A stretch of 63,777 nucleotides of DNA, counting the filler, from Sandaracinaceae bacterium (GTDB taxonomy: Bacteria; Myxococcota_A; Polyangia; Polyangiales; JADJQN01), in NCBI GenBank assembly GCA_947483975.1. It is 18 parts of 18 records of this genome, joined end to end, with 100 filler letters (N's around TTAATTAATTAA, not from the genome) between each part and the next. Parts side by side here need not be neighbours in the genome. Positions count along the whole stretch, not along the records: positions 25,465 to 28,957 come from CANKOL010000481.1; positions 29,058 to 32,549 come from CANKOL010000482.1; positions 32,650 to 36,096 come from CANKOL010000483.1; 15 more parts are not named here. One strand, written 5' to 3'. The position numbers were made by a program. The stretch's first letter is position 1. Every line of letters begins with the position of its first letter. Shown in pieces: positions 28,722-34,700 of this stretch.

Positions 28722-31700
28722 GACGTACTGCTTGGCCGACTCGTAGACGCCCCAGCGCACGCAGCAGTCGGCGTAGTTCACGCCGCTGGCCTCGACGTCC
28801 ACGACGACCGCGTCGTCGGGCTCGCCGGCCAGCGAGAGGTCGGGGCACGTCTCGAGCGAGAGCTTGTCGTAGCCGCCGGGGGCGTGGATCGAGATCTTCT
28901 GCATCGCGTCGCGGAGCGTAAGGGGCAAAGGGGGCGAGCGGGGCACCCGCGAGCCCGNNNNNNNNNNNNNNNNNNNNNNNNNNNNNNNNNNNNNNNNNNN
29001 NTTAATTAATTAANNNNNNNNNNNNNNNNNNNNNNNNNNNNNNNNNNNNNNNNNNNNCCATCATCGAAGGAGTCGACGTGCGCCCCGCCAGCCCCGCCAG
29101 CGGCGCCCGTCCCGTTGAGCGCGGCTCCACCGCCGCCCGTGCCTCCGCCCGGCCCCGGGCGCCCTTGGTCCGCCGAGACGTCGATCGTCCCCTCGACGTC
29201 GATGTCTCCCGACGCGAGCACGACGAGCGGATGCGCGCCCGCCGGCATCAGCGTCCCGCCGGTGCGCACGCGCAGGTTCCTGACGATCAGCACGCAGAGC
29301 GACGGCCCGCCCGCCTGCGCGACGAGGTGCGTCGCGACGCCCTCGACCTCGCAGGTATCGGCGTTCAGGAGCATCACCTCACCCGCGCCGACGTCGAGGT
29401 CTGCCGTGCCGATCGCGAAGGAATCCGCCGACACATTCGACGGCACGAACTGCGCGCAGCGCGTCGCGGCGCCCATGGCGCAGCCGAGCGGACAAGCCGT
29501 GCGCTGCTCCCGCCCGCCGACGCACTCGATCAGCTCGCCCTCGACGCAGCGCGTCGCGCCGCTGCACGGCGGGCCGCCCAGATCGACCTCGACGACGGGC
29601 CCGAGATCCTGCGAGCCGAGGTCCCGCGCGCCGAGGTCCACGTGGATGACCGGCCCCGCGTCGGGAGACTCCATCGCGGGCGGCAAGCTGCCGACATCCG
29701 AGTGGACGATCGCGCTGCAGGCCGCGAGGGGAAACAGCGCGAGGAGCGAGAGAGAGATCCGCGAGAAAGCGACGGCGAAGCGGAAAGACATGAAATTCTC
29801 CTTCGCACACCAGCGAGTAGCCACCGCCAGGGTAGCAGACACGAGCCGCGGGCGGCGCGCGCTCGGCTATGCTCGGCCGCCATGAAGCTCCTCGTGCTCA
29901 ACACCGGCTCCACGTCCGTCAAGTACCAGCTCTACGAGATGGACACCGAGACGCGCCTCGCCGTCGGGCGGATCGAGCGCGTCGGCTCAGCGGAGTCGTT
30001 GCTCGTGTACGAGGGGCCCGACGGCGCGAGCGTGAAGGAGCCGTGCGCCGCGCCCGACGCGCGCGCTGCGATCGGGCAAATCCTCGCGCTGCTGCTGCGC
30101 GAGGGCGGACCCGTCGCGCGCCTCGAGGAGATCGAGGCCGTCGGACACCGCGTCGTGCACGGCGGCGAGCGCCTCGTCCGCCCCGTCGTGGTCGACGACG
30201 AGGTGCGCCGCATCATCGCCGAGTGCGCCGAGTACGCGCCGCTGCACAACCCGCCCGCGCTCGTCGGGCTCGACGCGGCGACCGCGGCGCTGCCCGGGGT
30301 CCCGCAGGTCGCAGTGTTCGACACCGCGTTTCACGCGGAGCTGCCCGCGCACGCGTACTCCTACGCGCTGCCGCACGCGCTCTACCTCGAGCGCGGCGTG
30401 CGTCGCTATGGCTTTCACGGGCCGAGCCATCAGTTCATGTCGCTCGCCGCCGCGGCGCACCTCGGGACCGACGTCGCGCGCCTGCGGCTGATCACCTGTC
30501 ATCTCGGCGGCGGCGCGAGCATCTCCGCCATCGAGGGCGGGCACTCGGTCGACACCTCGATGGGCATGACGCCGCTCGAGGGGCTCGTGATGGGCACGCG
30601 CGCGGGCGACCTCGACCCCGCGATCCTGCTGATGCTGCTGCGCCGCGGCATGAGCCCCGAGGAGCTCGACACGATGCTCAACAAGCGCTCCGGGCTCGCG
30701 GGGCTGAGCGGCATCGCGAGCGGCGACTACCGCGACATCGAGCGCGCGGCGAACGGCGGCGAGGTGCACGCGCGCCTCGCGATCGACGTGTTCACGCACC
30801 GCCTCCGCAAGTACATCGGCGCCTACGCGGCGGTGCTCGGCGGCGCGGACGCGCTCGTCTTCACGGGCGGCATCGGCGAGAACAGCGCGAGCCTCCGCGC
30901 GGCGGTCTGCGAGGGCCTGCTCTACATGGGCGTCTCGCTCGACGCGGCGCTCAACGCGAGCGCGGCGCCCGGCAAACACGGGGGCATCGTCGACGTCAGC
31001 GCAGAGCGCGCGCCGACCCGCGTCCTCGTCGTCGCGACGGAAGAGGAGCGCATGATCGCGCGCGAGGTCGTGCGCTGCCTGCGCGGGCCGACCGCGGCGG
31101 TGCGCAGCATCCAAGCCAAGCCGATCCCCGTCGGCGTCAGCGTGCGGCACGTGCACCTCTCGCGCGCGCACTGCGATCAGCTCTTCGGCCCGGGCTACGA
31201 GCTCAGCAAGCGGCGCGACATCTCGCAGAAGGGGCAGTTCGTCACGCGCGAGACGGTCGATCTGATCGGGCCCAAGGGCGAGCTGCGCGGCGTCGGGATC
31301 ATCAACCCGCTGCGTGAGGCGACGCAGGTCGAGGTCTCGAAGACCGACGCGTTCGCGCTCGGCGTCAACCCGCCGCTGCGCGACAGCGGGCAGCTCGAGG
31401 GCTCGAGCGGGCTGCGCCTGCGCGGGCCTGCGGGCGAGGTCGTGCTCGAGACGGGGCTGATCCTCGCGCTGCGGCACGTGCACATGAGCCCGCACGACGC
31501 AGAGACCTTCGGCGTCGGCGACAGGGACGTGATCAACGTGCGCATCGAGGGCGACCGCGAGATGACGATGGGCGACGTGCTCGTGCGCGTGCGCGCGGAC
31601 TTCGTGCTCGACCTGCACCTCGACACCGACGAGGCGAACGCCGCCGGGCTCAACAACGACAGCGTCGTCGCCTTCGACAGCGTGCAGCAGCGGCGCGCGT

Positions 31701-34700
31701 AGGCGCTGCGGCGACGAGGCGCGGCCCAGCCATGACGCGGTTGGCGCCCTTCAGTAGACCGCGAGGCCGACCATGCCCTCGCCCGTGATGACGCCGCCGC
31801 GCGCCTCGTTCACGTACGTCGCGCCGCCGCGCAGCGTCAGCGCGAGGCGCGTCGTCAGCTCGAGCTGCACGAGCCCGCCGCCGCCCACCGAGAGCGCCCA
31901 GCGCTCGTCACGCTGGGTCGGCGACGCCGTGCCGACGCGCCCGAACGCTCCGAGATGGACCGGCCCGAGCGCGAGCGGCAGCGCCTGTAGCTCGCCGCCG
32001 AACTGCGCGTTGACGAGCGTGTTGCCGTCGCGATCGCCGAGCCCGAGCAGCGTGTCGAAGAGCAAGCCGAGCTGCTGAAGCGGGAAGAAACCCAGCTGGA
32101 CGTGGGCGGCGAATGCCGTGCCCATCAGCCCGCGCCGCCCGCGGAGCGACGCGACGCCGCCCTCCATGCCGTAGACGAAGCCGACGCGATTCAGCGGCGC
32201 GCGGCCGAGCGTCACGAAGGGCCCCTCGTCCTCGGAGACGAGCAGCTCCGTCGCCGCCGCCGCAGTCTGCGCGTCGAGCAGCGCGAGCGGCACCCACGAG
32301 GTGCTCCCGTCCGACGCGAGCACGTGCACCGGATGCATCGGATTCAGCCGCGCCCAGCCGTCGTAGCGCGCGCCCTCCGTGCCGGCGAGCACGAGCGCGA
32401 CGACCGCGCTCAGCGCGACGACGACGACGACGACGACCGCCGTACCATCGCCTCCGCCACCGCTGCCACCGCTGCCGCCGCCCGTCCCGCCACCACCGCT
32501 CGGGTTCGGCGCGGTGCCGCCGGGCGCGGGCGTCACGCCGACGGTCCCCNNNNNNNNNNNNNNNNNNNNNNNNNNNNNNNNNNNNNNNNNNNNTTAATTA
32601 ATTAANNNNNNNNNNNNNNNNNNNNNNNNNNNNNNNNNNNNNNNNNNNNACGCCGACGCCGCAGAGCACGTCCGCGTGCGGGTCGGCGACGAGCAGGCGC
32701 GCGTCTGCGCGGGCGGCGCGGCGCGCGTGCGCGGCGATGAAGGCCTCAGTGACGGGGCGCGTGAGACCCGCGGGGTCCGTGCCGCCGAAGGAGAGCAGCA
32801 GCGCGTCGCGCACGGTCGAGCGCACGTCCGCGCGCAGCTCCGCGCGCAGCACGATGTATGGCGCGCCGACGAGCAAGCGCGTCCACGGCGCGGTGCTCGC
32901 GGGGAGCGCGTGATAGCGCGCCTCGTCGAAGCCGACGTTCTGATTCAGCACGAGGTCCGCGCGCTGCGCCTGCCTCGCCTCGTCGTCGAGCGCGAGCACG
33001 GGCACGGCCGCTCGGAGCCGCTCGAGGTCGCCGGGCACGAGCGCGTAGTCGTCGACGACGAGCGCCGTGACCTGCTCCGCGCGGAGGTGCGCTTCGAGCA
33101 CGTCGAGCGCGCCGGGTGCGGCGTCGATCAACGTCACGCCAGCCGCCACGAGGCGGTCCAGAGCGGCCCCCGACGCGCCGCTGCCGACGAGGTGCGCGCG
33201 CCCGCCGAGGCTCGTCCACGCGGCGAGCAGCGCGGTCACGCGCGCGAGATGCCCGCTGCCGGTCGCAGGCGTCGAGTGCGCCCAGCCGACGAGCAGCTTG
33301 TCGCGCACGCGGGCCGCGCGGCGCGTGTGCTCGTCGTCGATGCCCTTCTGCGTGATGCCGGAGTTCTTCGCCGCGATCTCCGGGTGCGCGTCGAGCCAGC
33401 CCGCGATCTCCGCCGTCGTCGCGTCGTCGCCGAGCGCGCAGAGGACGGCGTCGACGACCTCGAGATCCTCGGGAGTGTCGACGGTCAAACGCAGATGATC
33501 GAGCGCCGGGCCGTCAGGGTCCGTGACGCGCGTCCGAAAGCGCCCAGGCGCGCGATAGAGGTACGGCGTCACGTGCTCGCGGTCGCCAGCTTCGCTCGCC
33601 TCCGCCTGCGCGCGCTCGAGCGCCGCGCGCGAGAAGACCTCGACGTCGAGCCCGCGCGGGATGCGCCGCACGGCGCCCGCCTGATTCGTCACGTAGTCGA
33701 GCGGCTCGCCGGCCGCGCGCGCCTCGAAGAACACGTGAAGCACGCGCTCTAGCTCGTCCGAGTCGAGCAGCGGGCAGTCCGCCGTCACGCGCACGAGCAC
33801 GTCGGCGCGAAGCTGCGCGAGCGCGCCGTGGAAGCGCGCGAGCACGTCGTCGACGGAGCCGCGCGAGACGAGCGCGCCGAGCCGCGCGGCTTCCCTTGCG
33901 AGCGCGTCGTCGGTCGGCTCGGTCGTCGTCGCGACGAGCACCTCCGCGACCGAAGGCGCGCGCCTCACGCGCCGCAGCACGTGCGCCAGCACCGAGGTGC
34001 CGCTCGCGCCCGCGACGCGCAGGACCTTGCCGGGGAGGCGCGACGAGCCCATCCGCGCCTGCACGATGACCGCGACCGACGGCGTGAGCGCACCGTGCGT
34101 AGACACGGCCGAGGCGTAGCACGCAGCGCCGAAAGTTTCTGTTCGCGGACGCGCGGGCGTAGCTTCGGGCCGAGGGCGACGCACGGCCGCCCCTCTGTGC
34201 CCCAGCGGCACGATCCTCTGCGCCCACCGTATCCGGACAGCAACACTCGGGACCCGGATGGCAGCCCCGCCAGCCAGGGCCGCCTCGACGTGCGCCCTGC
34301 GCCGTTCCTCGTCAAACGTTACAGGATTATTTTTGCTCGTTATTCCAAGCAGTTGACGCTGATTTCGAGCCCGCCTTCGCGAACCATGGAGCGGGCCCCG
34401 CGCGATGGCACCACTCCTGCACAGCGACCCCGCGAGGCTATCGACATGCGCGACCTGATGCGACCCACCGAGCAGTCTGACTCCCTCGACGCGACCCCGC
34501 CGAAGCGCGAGTCGATGCGCGTGCCGAGCCAGGCGAGCGCGAGCCGAGCGAGCGGCGCCGCGCGGGCGTTCCCGAAGCGCATCGGCATCCTCAACGACTA
34601 CGTGCGCATCCCGTTCGCGAACGGCTCGTCGTTCGCGTCGCAGTTCTTCTATCGCGAGTTCATGACCCGCGGGCACGAGGTCACGATCGTCGGCCCGACG

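What a model noticed while it worked through the whole genome (the two positions that open the first line are those of the whole stretch)
29882..31702. Acetate kinase fused to a PduL-type phosphotransacylase
g04601 joins a complete acetate kinase (1-394) to a complete PduL/PTAC phosphotransacylase domain (416-590) in one 606-aa chain, and the Pfam table shows no separate Pta beside the PTA_PTB domain of malic enzyme g00395. Boldest reading: Myxococcota run the acetyl-CoA <-> acetate + ATP switch on a single bifunctional enzyme that channels acetyl phosphate, which would limit free acetyl phosphate and protein acetylation. New would be a channelled AckA-PduL enzyme outside microcompartments.
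Evidence so far: Pfam Acetate_kinase 2-394 (E 4e-131) and PTAC 416-590 (E 3e-69); only other PTA_PTB/PTAC/Acetate_kinase row is g00395; 52% identity to Desulfitobacterium AckA over 1-393. Search with residues 400-606: 1571 proteins at E<=1e-20, all 120 listed have PF00871+PF06130, 570-623 aa when whole, incl. Sandaracinus amylolyticus and Pyxidicoccus, named only 'acetate/propionate family kinase' or 'acetate kinase'. Paper search PduL + acetate kinase + fused: 11 papers, 6 listed, none on such a fusion by title/abstract.
(Added by a program. Inside this text positions count along the whole contig: they may not be those of the stretch shown here. "Call 12" and the like, gene names such as g00115 and contig names such as C1 are that model's own, and its searches are not shown. 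The text may have been shortened before it was handed on; [...] marks where a part breaks off. The agent that wrote the report below was given it as the finding of a first reader that could run no searches.)

Follow-up and report, generated by a model that had tools for sequence, protein, structure and literature searches.

The report
Fused acetate kinase–PduL phosphotransacylase gene
This gene joins the two enzymes that turn acetyl-CoA into acetate plus ATP in one protein; the fusion is real and common in myxobacteria, but it and the channelling idea were already noted in print in 2016, and neither has been tested at the bench.

Summary
Window 29882-31702 (+) is one intact 606-aa ORF with a full acetate kinase domain (residues 2-394), a 21-residue linker and a full PduL-type phosphotransacylase domain (416-590). 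All catalytic residues checked in both halves are conserved. Contigs from other metagenome runs bridge the domain junction, so it is not an assembly artefact.

- In a 401-genome sample of the phylum, 117 carry PduL, nearly always fused. 64 carry a classical Pta and 160 carry none of the three enzymes.
- This genome has no Pta apart from the PTA_PTB domain of a malic enzyme, and no microcompartment shell gene. It does have a phosphoketolase, a second source of free acetyl phosphate, and an AMP-forming acetyl-CoA synthetase.
- Channelling remains conjecture. It rests on an invariant linker length, an AF2 pTM of 0.82 and a weak complex-prediction pass.

The novelty claim does not hold. Erbilgin et al. 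2016 (PMC4784909) already reported PduL fused to Ack, lacking encapsulation peptides, and proposed channelling. My ten literature searches found no biochemical study.

The same module also occurs with an N-terminal cyclic-nucleotide-binding domain in other phyla.

Verdict: an ordinary new member of a noted but uncharacterised fusion family.

The parts
29882..31702 (+). Complete CDS of the 606-aa Ack-PduL fusion protein (ATG start, TGA stop included)
   Evidence: junction bridged by contigs of other runs
29885..31063 (+). Acetate kinase (ASKHA) domain, residues 2-394
   Evidence: Pfam PF00871 E 1.9e-130. The match to M. thermophila acetate kinase 1TUU/1G99 has E about 3e-118. The AF2 model gives TM 0.93 to 1g99_A. 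N7, S10, S12, K14, R90, H122, D147, F178, H179, P231, R240 and E388 are conserved in 68-69 of 69 fusion sequences.
31064..31126 (+). Inter-domain linker, residues 395-415
   Evidence: The length is 21 residues in 55 of 55 aligned fusions. Mean column conservation is 0.70, and R398, G402 and I415 are invariant. AF2 pLDDT is 84-93 over residues 391-420, and the model has no helix after residue 401 that could be an encapsulation peptide.
31127..31651 (+). PduL-type phosphotransacylase domain (PF06130), residues 416-590
   Evidence: Pfam E 1.2e-68. The match to R. palustris PduL 5CUO has E 9.5e-52. The AF2 model gives TM 0.96-0.97 and rmsd 0.8-0.9 A to 5cuo. The zinc ligands H423, H425, E484, H532, H534 and H579, plus R478 and S502, are conserved in 69 of 69 sequences, mapped with the residue list of PMC4784909.

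Best explanation
The gene encodes a cytosolic, bifunctional enzyme that is not associated with a microcompartment. The C-terminal PduL domain is a di-zinc phosphotransacylase that converts acetyl-CoA + Pi to acetyl phosphate + CoA. The N-terminal acetate kinase domain converts acetyl phosphate + ADP to acetate + ATP. Together they stand in for the classical Pta-AckA pathway, with PduL replacing the unrelated Pta.

This genome also has an AMP-forming acetyl-CoA synthetase for acetate uptake. The fusion therefore most likely runs mainly towards acetate excretion with substrate-level ATP gain, although it should be reversible.

Shown here: the architecture, intact catalytic residues, native-like folds, the lack of any other Pta or PduL in the assembled genome, and a wide distribution of the fusion. 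Inferred: the enzymatic activities, acetate as the preferred acyl group, and the direction of flux. Conjectural: that the fixed-length linker and a defined domain interface pass acetyl phosphate directly between the two sites.
For: Domains and cut-offs are.

Ack residues. The Ack catalytic and acetate-pocket residues align with M. thermophila acetate kinase. These are N7, S10, S12, K14, R91, H123, D148, H180, R241 and E384, plus V93, L122, F179 and P232. They are conserved in 68-69 of 69 fusion sequences, with L/I at the L122 position. Which residues count as catalytic is partly recalled. S10, S12, K14 and the pocket residues V93, L122 and P232 are named in PMC4390882 (passages read).

PduL residues. 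All six zinc ligands and the phosphate contacts Arg103 and Ser127 of PduL are kept in 69 of 69 sequences.

Structure. AF2 gives mean pLDDT 86.0 and pTM 0.82. Both domains superpose on solved structures.

Own genome. The only PTA_PTB domain belongs to a malic enzyme, whose TIGR00651 match (E 7.4e-75) stays under that model's curated cut-off. There is one PduL, this gene. There is no BMC shell match. Acs scores 991 bits.

Phylum sample. 108 of 117 PduL-bearing genomes lack a true Pta, and 115 of 117 have Ack. 108 of 118 PduL match rows lie in open frames of 586 aa or more.

Defined domain arrangement. The linker is 21 residues in 55 of 55 sequences. In the complex prediction of Ack 1-400 against PduL 411-606, the score was 0.50 (runs 0.50, 0.48, 0.57) with a best control of 0.01. 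The mark was reached by 116 of 157 solved complexes and 2 of 215 mismatched pairs. At 0.60 or under, however, it was reached by only 18 of those 157 and by both mismatches that passed, so this is weak support. The runs agree in at least 92% of contacts and the partner's pLDDT is at least 90. My own alignment was used, so these counts hold only roughly.

Precedent. PduL serving as the Pta outside microcompartments appears in listed papers on Moorella and phytoplasma. I saw only the search listings.
Against: No activity, expression or structure was measured, and no RNA run holds the sequence.

Two otherwise highly conserved positions differ across the myxobacterial clade.
- MtACK Asn211, the ATP beta-phosphate contact, is Gly in 68 of 69 sequences. 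In MtACK, Asn211Ala lowered specific activity about 6-fold and raised the Km for acetate from 14 to 165 mM (PMC4390882).
- The PduL CoA contact Arg97 is Ala, Gly or Ser in 69 of 69 sequences, and Lys70 is Arg in 67 of 69.
Kinetics may therefore differ from the model enzymes.

The genome is 81% complete, so a separate Pta could lie in the missing fifth.

Against strict channelling: the own genome and its congener G400 carry a phosphoketolase. It makes free acetyl phosphate that the fusion would have to take up from solution. The complex prediction is only a weak pass.

No conserved operon partner points to a physiological role.
Confidence: 0.78

Rival explanations
1. Acetyl phosphate is channelled. 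The two active sites would be held in a fixed geometry, so acetyl phosphate passes directly between them, keeping the free pool and non-enzymatic protein acetylation low.
For: The linker length is invariant, 21 residues in 55 of 55 sequences, with conserved residues. AF2 gives pTM 0.82 with a confident linker. The complex prediction is a weak pass: score 0.50 against a best control of 0.01. The mark was reached by 116 of 157 solved complexes and 2 of 215 mismatches. At 0.60 or under it was reached by only 18 of the 157 and by both mismatches that passed. Contact agreement between runs is at least 92% and the partner's pLDDT is at least 90. The same Ack-PduL module is retained in several phyla, with or without an added domain. 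Erbilgin et al. 2016 proposed the same idea.
Against: No coordinates were available to me, so I could not measure the distance between the sites or look for a tunnel. A fusion can be selected for stoichiometry or co-regulation alone. The own genome has a phosphoketolase that releases free acetyl phosphate. The tool itself says a pass at this score is more often wrong than right unless the guess was likely beforehand.
Confidence: 0.2
2. The enzyme acts on propionyl or other short acyl groups. It would work like PduL plus PduW, converting propionyl-CoA (for example from odd-chain or branched-chain catabolism) to propionate plus ATP.
For: The NCBIfam names are 'acetate/propionate family kinase' and 'phosphate propanoyltransferase'. 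The characterised PduL enzymes use propionyl-CoA (PMC4784909). A Klebsiella PduW structure is among the close Ack matches (7fj7).
Against: The propionate kinase equivalog NF009045 scores 348.5 bits against a cut-off of 580. The acetate-pocket residues V93, L122, F179 and P232 of MtACK are kept. From memory, supported only by the PDB entry titles 'A88V' and 'A88G', Salmonella propionate kinase has Ala at the Val93 position. No pdu, B12 or shell genes lie nearby.
Confidence: 0.1
3. The enzyme is a branch point for acetyl phosphate made by phosphoketolase. In this genus Xfp would produce the acetyl phosphate. The PduL domain would then send it to acetyl-CoA and the Ack domain to acetate plus ATP, so the two domains would work in parallel on a shared substrate and not in series.
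For: Phosphoketolase is present in the own genome (573 bits, 847-aa frame) and in the congener G400. All 37 genomes with a strong Xfp match also have Ack.
Against: Only 3 of the 117 PduL-bearing genomes have a strong Xfp match (G000, G400, G373), whereas 29 of the 69 Ack-only genomes do. Xfp therefore cannot explain the fusion in the phylum at large. The G400 match is split into two pieces and may be broken.
Confidence: 0.1
4. The fusion is an artefact: a chimeric assembly, or a sequencing error that merged two adjacent genes.
For: The gene lies on a 3.5-kb contig of a fragmented MAG with 524 contigs.
Against: 78 of 79 related loci from other genomes match over both domains or are cut by a contig end. 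The 79th, L081, is a Clostridiaceae acetate kinase alone. 108 of 118 PduL match rows in the phylum sample lie in frames of 586 aa or more. Contigs of four other runs bridge the junction with no insertions or deletions listed. The linker length is invariant.
Confidence: 0.01

Closest known systems
Ack-PduL multidomain proteins noted by Erbilgin, Sutter & Kerfeld 2016 (PLoS Biol, PMC4784909)
   Same: The architecture is the same: PF00871 followed by PF06130, with no encapsulation peptide. The paper proposes the same role, PduL replacing Pta in a Pta-Ack variant, and the same channelling idea.
   Different: The paper gives one passing paragraph, with no taxa, counts or experiments in the passages I read. 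This report adds the distribution in Myxococcota, the residue checks and the clade-specific substitutions.
Classical Pta-AckA pathway (for example in E. coli or Methanosarcina thermophila)
   Same: The overall chemistry is the same: acetyl-CoA + Pi + ADP <-> acetate + CoA + ATP through acetyl phosphate. The Ack half is homologous, with E about 3e-118 to MtACK.
   Different: The transacylase is PduL, a di-zinc, double beta-barrel enzyme that is not homologous to Pta (PF01515). The two activities sit on one chain and are not two proteins from one operon. In the phylum sample the Pta matches over cut-off lie next to Ack wherever both rows are listed, for example G044 C166 and G141 C248.
BMC-associated PduL (Salmonella and R. 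palustris PduL, PDB 5CUO)
   Same: The fold is the same (TM 0.96-0.97) and so are all six zinc ligands, Arg103 and Ser127.
   Different: There is no N-terminal encapsulation peptide, no shell genes in the genome and no pdu or eut neighbours. The CoA contact Arg97 is replaced by Gly here and by Ala in most myxobacterial relatives.
Stand-alone PduL used as the cell's Pta (Moorella thermoacetica, phytoplasmas)
   Same: In both cases PduL works with an acetate kinase in the cytosol, outside any microcompartment.
   Different: In those organisms the two enzymes are separate proteins. I saw these papers only as search listings. The biology stated here is otherwise recalled.
cNMP_binding-Ack-PduL three-domain proteins (representatives P0006, P0011, P0013, P0017, P0026, P0058, P0065)
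   Same: They share the Ack-PduL module, and their PduL parts are 43-53% identical to the window's.
   Different: They carry an extra N-terminal cyclic-nucleotide-binding domain. Their Atlas clusters are commonest in Pseudomonadota and Planctomycetota. They keep Arg97 and fall outside the myxobacterial clade in the PduL tree.

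Membership tests
Acetate/propionate kinase family (PF00871, TIGR00016) | Full-length profile match above the curated cut-off | tested here: met
   PF00871 scores 435.5 bits (cut-off 22) over profile positions 1-392 of 392. TIGR00016 scores 428.9 bits (cut-off 293.4).
Acetate/propionate kinase family (PF00871, TIGR00016) | Catalytic and phosphoryl-transfer residues (MtACK Asn7, Ser10, Ser12, Lys14, Arg91, His123, Asp148, His180, Arg241, Glu384) | tested here: met
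   All are present in the query and in 68-69 of 69 fusion sequences. The residue list is partly recalled and partly taken from PMC4390882.
Acetate/propionate kinase family (PF00871, TIGR00016) | [quoted passage not shown] | tested here: not met
   The query has Gly210, and 68 of 69 fusion sequences have Gly (1 has Ser). Other fused representatives carry N, D, E, R, G, A, V or S here. This residue is conserved but not strictly essential, since MtACK Asn211Ala keeps about one sixth of the activity.
Acetate/propionate kinase family (PF00871, TIGR00016) | ASKHA fold | tested here: met
   The AF2 model gives TM 0.93 and rmsd 2.6 A to 1g99_A.
Acetate/propionate kinase family (PF00871, TIGR00016) | Acetate-specific pocket (MtACK Val93, Leu122, Phe179, Pro232) | tested here: met
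   V92, L121 (L in 52, I in 17), F178 and P231 are found in all 69 sequences. The pocket residues are named in PMC4390882.
PduL-type phosphotransacylase (PF06130, NF011652) | Full-length profile match above the curated cut-off | tested here: met
   PF06130 scores 230.8 bits (cut-off 25) and NF011652 scores 240.6 bits (cut-off 209).
PduL-type phosphotransacylase (PF06130, NF011652) | Six metal ligands of the di-zinc site (His48, His50, Glu109, His157, His159, His204) | tested here: met
   H423, H425, E484, H532, H534 and H579 are present in 69 of 69 sequences.
PduL-type phosphotransacylase (PF06130, NF011652) | Phosphate-positioning residues Arg103 and Ser127 | tested here: met
   R478 and S502 are present in 69 of 69 sequences.
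PduL-type phosphotransacylase (PF06130, NF011652) | Conserved CoA contacts (Ser45, Lys70, Arg97, Leu99, His204, Asn211) | tested here: inconclusive
   Ser45, His204 and Asn211 are kept. Lys70 is Arg (67 of 69). Arg97 is Gly in the query and Ala 65, Gly 2, Ser 2 in the family. Leu99 is Ile.
PduL-type phosphotransacylase (PF06130, NF011652) | Double beta-barrel fold | tested here: met
   TM 0.96-0.97 and rmsd 0.8-0.9 A to 5cuo chains A and B.
Metabolosome (BMC) core PduL | N-terminal encapsulation peptide, with shell genes in the locus or genome | tested here: not met
   The PduL domain follows the Ack domain after a 21-residue non-helical linker. PF00936 gives 0 matches in the own genome, which is 81% complete. 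None of the neighbour proteins scanned in the related loci matched a shell family.
Classical phosphotransacetylase Pta (PF01515, TIGR00651) | Homology to PTA_PTB | tested here: not met
   The protein has no PF01515 match. It works like Pta but is not a member of that family.
Ack-PduL fusion family (as noted in PMC4784909) | PF00871 followed by PF06130 on one chain, without an encapsulation peptide | tested here: met
   The junction is bridged in other runs.
Substrate-channelling bifunctional enzymes | A defined inter-domain interface, or a tunnel linking the two active sites | tested here: inconclusive
   AF2 pTM is 0.82 and the linker length is invariant. The complex prediction gives only weak support, 0.50 against a best control of 0.01 (its calibration counts are given under Best explanation). 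I had no coordinates, so I measured no distance between the sites.
Substrate-channelling bifunctional enzymes | Kinetic signs of channelling (no lag, resistance to a trap, no isotope dilution) | not testable with these tools
   This needs the purified enzyme.

The most novel reading that the evidence does not exclude
The most novel reading not excluded is this. The Ack-PduL module is a true channelling machine with a fixed two-domain geometry, and it replaces Pta-AckA in about three in ten of the sampled Myxococcota genomes. It has been elaborated elsewhere with a cyclic-nucleotide sensor. On this reading, acetyl-phosphate output, and with it acetyl-phosphate-dependent protein acetylation and response-regulator phosphorylation, is insulated from or gated by signalling in these lineages. 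The clade-wide changes in Myxococcota at the ATP beta-phosphate contact (Asn211 to Gly) and at a CoA contact (Arg97 to Ala or Gly) would then be adaptations to direct hand-over of the intermediate.
Probability: 0.15. Interest if true: 0.55.

Novelty: new member of a known kind. Interest (0 to 1): 0.3.

Why it matters
Acetyl phosphate is an energy intermediate, a global acetyl donor and a phosphodonor for response regulators. An enzyme that makes and consumes it on one chain could decouple acetate and ATP metabolism from those signalling side effects. It would also be a compact part for metabolic engineering.

That case still needs bench work. The present data place this gene in a widespread fusion family that was flagged in 2016 and that, as far as my searches show, has never been characterised.

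The practical results are threefold:
- a corrected annotation, a bifunctional acetate kinase/phosphotransacylase and not 'acetate kinase' alone;
- a phylum-level picture of three alternative partners for Ack: fused PduL, Pta, and phosphoketolase;
- a pointer to the cNMP-Ack-PduL variant, which is the more interesting target.

Tried and rejected
- **Gene neighbourhood.**
  - I ran my own GC3-based gene caller on 78 related loci, and the fusion gene was called in 73 of them.
  - No conserved operon appeared.
  - The commonest neighbour is a protein of about 390 aa with no Pfam match, directly downstream in 15 of 73 loci.
  - Other neighbours recur in at most 14 loci: Ser/Thr kinases, histidine kinases, GNAT, metallo-beta-lactamase and a SerA-like dehydrogenase.
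  - The closest relative, L063, has Usp, HTH_8, VanY and amidase neighbours.
  - Only the upstream lipoprotein-like ORF is shared with the window, at 51% identity. The downstream ORF is not shared.
- **Promoter and terminator scan.** The consensus scan of 29700-31900 found none.
- **Expression.** No RNA holder was listed.
- **One origin or several.** A quick tree of 158 PduL domains gives a well-supported myxobacterial clade (SH-aLRT 99). Its relation to the other Ack-fused group is left unstarred, and truncated metagenome fragments blur the labels. I ran no AU test.
- **Literature searches with no relevant hit.**
  - PF06130 + PF00871 gave one listed paper, which is on archaeal microcompartments.
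  - No papers at all came back for bifunctional + myxobacteria, PduL + acetate kinase + Myxococcus, 'Ack-PduL' and five similar strings, or cyclic nucleotide-binding domain + acetate kinase + phosphotransacetylase.
  - Acetate kinase + phosphate propanoyltransferase + fus* gave 6 papers, none on the fusion by title.
  - Myxococc* + acetate kinase + phosphotransacetylase gave 27 papers, 25 listed, none on the fusion by title or abstract start.
  - Subscription journals and supplements were not searched.
- **Geometry of the model.** I could not measure the distance between the active sites, because model coordinates are not exposed.

Full report
**1. What is in the sequence**

The window is not one stretch of genome. 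It is a chain of contigs of about 3.5 kb, separated by N spacers. The contig that holds the finding spans window 29058-32549 and is contig C482 of the window's genome. That genome has 5.29 Mb in 524 contigs and is 80.95% complete.

On this contig there is one long + strand frame. The mechanical ORF list extends it to a GTG at 29078 (874 aa). However, homology to acetate kinases starts exactly at the ATG at 29882 (MKLLVLNTGSTS...), which gives a 606-aa protein ending at 31702.

- Pfam finds a complete Acetate_kinase domain at residues 2-394 (E 1.9e-130) and a complete PTAC/PduL domain at 416-590 (E 1.2e-68).
- NCBIfam agrees. TIGR00016 ackA scores 428.9 bits (cut-off 293.4). NF011652 phosphate propanoyltransferase scores 240.6 bits (cut-off 209).

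**2. The fusion is not an artefact**

- A scan of one genome per species returned 79 related loci. 78 are from Myxococcota and match across both domains, or up to a contig end, at 62-78% identity. They include Pyxidicoccus caerfyrddinensis (70%), a second Pyxidicoccus, Hyalangium, Kofleriaceae, Haliangiales, Nannocystaceae, Sandaracinaceae and Polyangiaceae. The 79th locus is a Clostridiaceae acetate kinase alone.
- Contigs assembled from other lake and freshwater metagenome runs bridge the junction between the domains (31064-31126), and no insertions or deletions were listed. These are X6 30436-31750, X7 30836-31147 and X11 30922-31140. X10 covers it with two overlapping pieces.
- The linker is 21 residues long in 55 of 55 aligned fusions.

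**3. Both halves look active**

The Ack half was aligned to the Methanosarcina thermophila enzyme (1TUU/1G99, E about 3e-118).
- It keeps N7, S10, S12, K14, R91, H123, D148, H180, R241 and E384.
- It also keeps the acetate-pocket residues V93, L122, F179 and P232.
- Across 69 fusion sequences these positions are conserved in 68-69, with L or I at the L122 position.

The PduL half was aligned to Rhodopseudomonas palustris PduL (5CUO, E 9.5e-52).
- I mapped it with the residue list read in PMC4784909.
- All six zinc ligands are kept: His48, His50, Glu109, His157, His159 and His204. In the query these are H423, H425, E484, H532, H534 and H579.
- The phosphate contacts Arg103 and Ser127 are also kept.
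- All of these are present in 69 of 69 sequences.

An AlphaFold2 model built on a 55-sequence alignment has mean pLDDT 86.0 and pTM 0.82. Its two domains superpose on 1g99_A (TM 0.93) and on 5cuo (TM 0.96-0.97, rmsd 0.8-0.9 A). No solved chain covers both domains.

Two clade-wide departures stand out.
- MtACK Asn211 contacts the ATP beta-phosphate. [quoted passage not shown] It is Gly in 68 of 69 sequences. In MtACK the Asn211Ala change cut specific activity about 6-fold and raised the Km for acetate from 14 to 165 mM.
- The PduL CoA contact Arg97 is Gly in the query and Ala in 65 of 69 sequences.
- Other Ack-PduL proteins outside Myxococcota keep Arg97 and vary at the Asn211 position.

**4. 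Genomic setting**

- In the own genome the only PTA_PTB domain belongs to a 767-aa malic enzyme with malic, Malic_M and PTA_PTB domains. The pta model TIGR00651 stays below its cut-off.
- The only PduL is this gene.
- No BMC shell domain was found.
- A phosphoketolase is also present (XFP_N 573 bits in an 847-aa frame).
- The gene stands alone. Upstream and divergent is a lipoprotein-like ORF with no Pfam match, which is conserved at 51% identity beside the closest relative's gene. Downstream and convergent is an unrelated ORF with no Pfam match.
- Across 73 related loci no operon partner is conserved.

**5. Distribution in the phylum**

In an evenly drawn sample of 401 genomes, including the window's own, the counts are as follows.

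| Feature | Genomes (of 401) |
|---|---|
| PduL (PF06130) | 117 |
| Pta over the curated TIGR00651 cut-off | 64 |
| Acetate kinase domain (PF00871) | 239 |
| PduL and Pta together | 9 |
| PduL without Pta | 108 |
| PduL with Ack | 115 |
| Pta with Ack | 64 |
| Ack with neither PduL nor Pta | 69 |
| None of the three | 160 |

- Among high-quality genomes, 96 of 339 have PduL.
- 108 of 118 PduL match rows lie in open frames of 586 aa or more, which indicates fusions.
- The two PduL genomes without Ack have only a weak match or a contig-edge fragment.
- The pattern is patchy by family, for example f20 32 of 34, f2 6 of 29 and f27 0 of 11.
- Strong phosphoketolase matches occur in 37 genomes, and all 37 have Ack. 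29 of these fall in the Ack-only class, 5 have Pta and only 3 have the fusion: G000, its congener G400 and G373.

Acetate kinase in this phylum therefore has three alternative partners: fused PduL, Pta and phosphoketolase. The statement that 'Myxococcota' use the fusion holds for roughly three genomes in ten of those searched.

**6. Beyond the phylum**

I ran a profile-free search of the PduL part against 1.84 billion representatives. It found 2595 proteins at E <= 1e-3 and 500 at E <= 1e-30. I Pfam-scanned 29 of the best 150.
- 7 are Ack-PduL proteins of 590-649 aa, plus one fragment.
- 7 are three-domain proteins, cNMP_binding-Ack-PduL, of 715-777 aa.
- The rest are other PduL fusions, with citrate synthase, ComFB, a PduO-type adenosyltransferase, a flavoprotein or a GNAT.

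The Atlas places Ack-PduL clusters mostly in Myxococcota, with one in Bacteroidota. It places the cNMP form mostly in Pseudomonadota and Planctomycetota.

In a quick tree of 158 PduL domains the myxobacterial fusions form a supported clade (99). The other Ack-fused forms group elsewhere without strong support. One origin or several therefore remains open.

**7. Mechanism**

The best-supported reading is a bifunctional cytosolic enzyme that catalyses acetyl-CoA + Pi + ADP <-> acetate + CoA + ATP through acetyl phosphate. PduL does the job of Pta.
- Acetate is favoured over propionate as the substrate. The acetate pocket is retained, and the propionate kinase equivalog scores 348.5 bits against a cut-off of 580.
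- Because Acs is present, I infer that the usual direction is acetate formation with ATP gain.

Evidence for a fixed domain arrangement, which channelling would require:
- The linker length is invariant and the linker is moderately conserved, 0.70 against 0.78 and 0.83 for the two domains.
- The AF2 pTM is 0.82, with linker pLDDT of 84-93.
- Complex prediction of the two halves as separate chains gave a weak pass.
  - The score was 0.50 against a best control of 0.01.
  - The mark was reached by 116 of 157 solved complexes and 2 of 215 mismatched pairs.
  - At 0.60 or under it was reached by only 18 of the 157 and by both mismatches that passed.
  - Contact agreement between runs was at least 92% and the partner's pLDDT at least 90.
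  - My own alignment was used, so these counts hold only roughly.

Evidence against strict channelling in this organism: its phosphoketolase releases acetyl phosphate into solution.

**8. Comparison with what is known, and novelty**

Erbilgin, Sutter & Kerfeld 2016 wrote the following (PMC4784909; passages read).

My ten searches found no biochemical, structural or genetic study of such a fusion. Subscription journals and supplements were not covered.

The citrate synthase-PduL fusion that I noticed in passing is mentioned in a 2025 preprint on archaeal microcompartments (PMC12747264, passages read).

**9. Verdict**

This is a real and well-conserved gene. It should be annotated as a bifunctional acetate kinase/PduL-type phosphotransacylase. 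It is a new member of a fusion family that is known but untested.

Interest is modest, at 0.3. The open experimental questions are channelling, the clade-specific substitutions and the cNMP-regulated cousins.

Noticed in passing
window 1-63777 (N runs at 3571-3670, 7239-7338... 60366-60465): The window is a concatenation of 18 contigs of about 3.5 kb each, joined by paired N blocks around a short 'ttaattaattaa' spacer. Neighbouring 'genes' across spacers are therefore not true neighbours.
   Followed up: yes
own genome G000:C18:8754-9833 (outside the window): A phosphoketolase (XFP_N, 573 bits, 847-aa frame) coexists with the Ack-PduL fusion in this genome and in its congener G400. In the 401-genome phylum sample all 37 genomes with a strong Xfp match have Ack. 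Only 3 of them have the fusion, and 29 of the 69 'Ack-only' genomes have Xfp, sometimes adjacent to Ack (for example G258 C38 and G313 C57).
   Followed up: partly
proteins P0006, P0011, P0013, P0017, P0026, P0058, P0065 (representative library; not in the window): These are three-domain proteins, cNMP_binding (PF00027) + Acetate_kinase + PduL, of 715-777 aa. All 7 proteins of that length class that I scanned have this architecture. Atlas clusters of this form are commonest in Pseudomonadota and Planctomycetota. One literature search on it returned no paper.
   Followed up: partly
proteins P0106, P0055/P0056/P0123, P0084/P0033, P0007/P0039, P0069, P0045 (representative library): Other PduL fusions appeared: citrate synthase-PduL (617 aa; this kind of fusion is mentioned in PMC12747264), ComFB-PduL, PduO-type adenosyltransferase-PduL, PduL-flavoprotein and PduL-GNAT. 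One has the reversed order, PduL-Ack (573 aa). Its Ack match starts at profile position 75, so it may be a miscalled gene pair.
   Followed up: partly
window 30509-30511 (codon of Gly210) and 31295-31297 (codon of Gly472): The myxobacterial fusions carry two clade-wide substitutions. The ATP beta-phosphate contact Asn211 of M. thermophila acetate kinase is Gly in 68 of 69 sequences. The PduL CoA contact Arg97 is Ala, Gly or Ser in 69 of 69. Fused forms from other phyla keep Arg97.
   Followed up: partly
L037:11805-12989 and 14 other loci (e.g. L007, L009, L043): A protein of about 350-440 aa with no Pfam match lies directly downstream on the same strand as the fusion gene in 15 of 73 related loci, mostly Kofleriaceae and Haliangiales. 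The gap to the fusion gene is as small as 11 bases. It is absent beside the window's gene.
   Followed up: partly
window 29060-29791 (-), cut by the contig end: A divergent upstream ORF has a lipoprotein-like signal (...LALFPLAACSA...), a Cys-rich stretch and a Gly-rich stretch, and no Pfam match. It is 51% identical to the ORF in the same position beside the closest relative's fusion gene (L063:8415-9899).
   Followed up: partly
phylum sample, e.g. G234:C72:34083-34610, G382:C60:1582-2103, G077:C29:2133-2633: A few Myxococcota genomes carry a stand-alone PduL in frames of 183-247 aa. G234 also has a classical Pta-Ack pair on another contig. I did not check whether these belong to microcompartment loci.
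   Followed up: no
window 29800-31750: Near-identical DNA is held by lake-water and freshwater metagenome runs from 10 coded studies dated 2018-2025. Ten runs hold half or more of the sampled words, which suggests a recurrent freshwater population.
   Followed up: no
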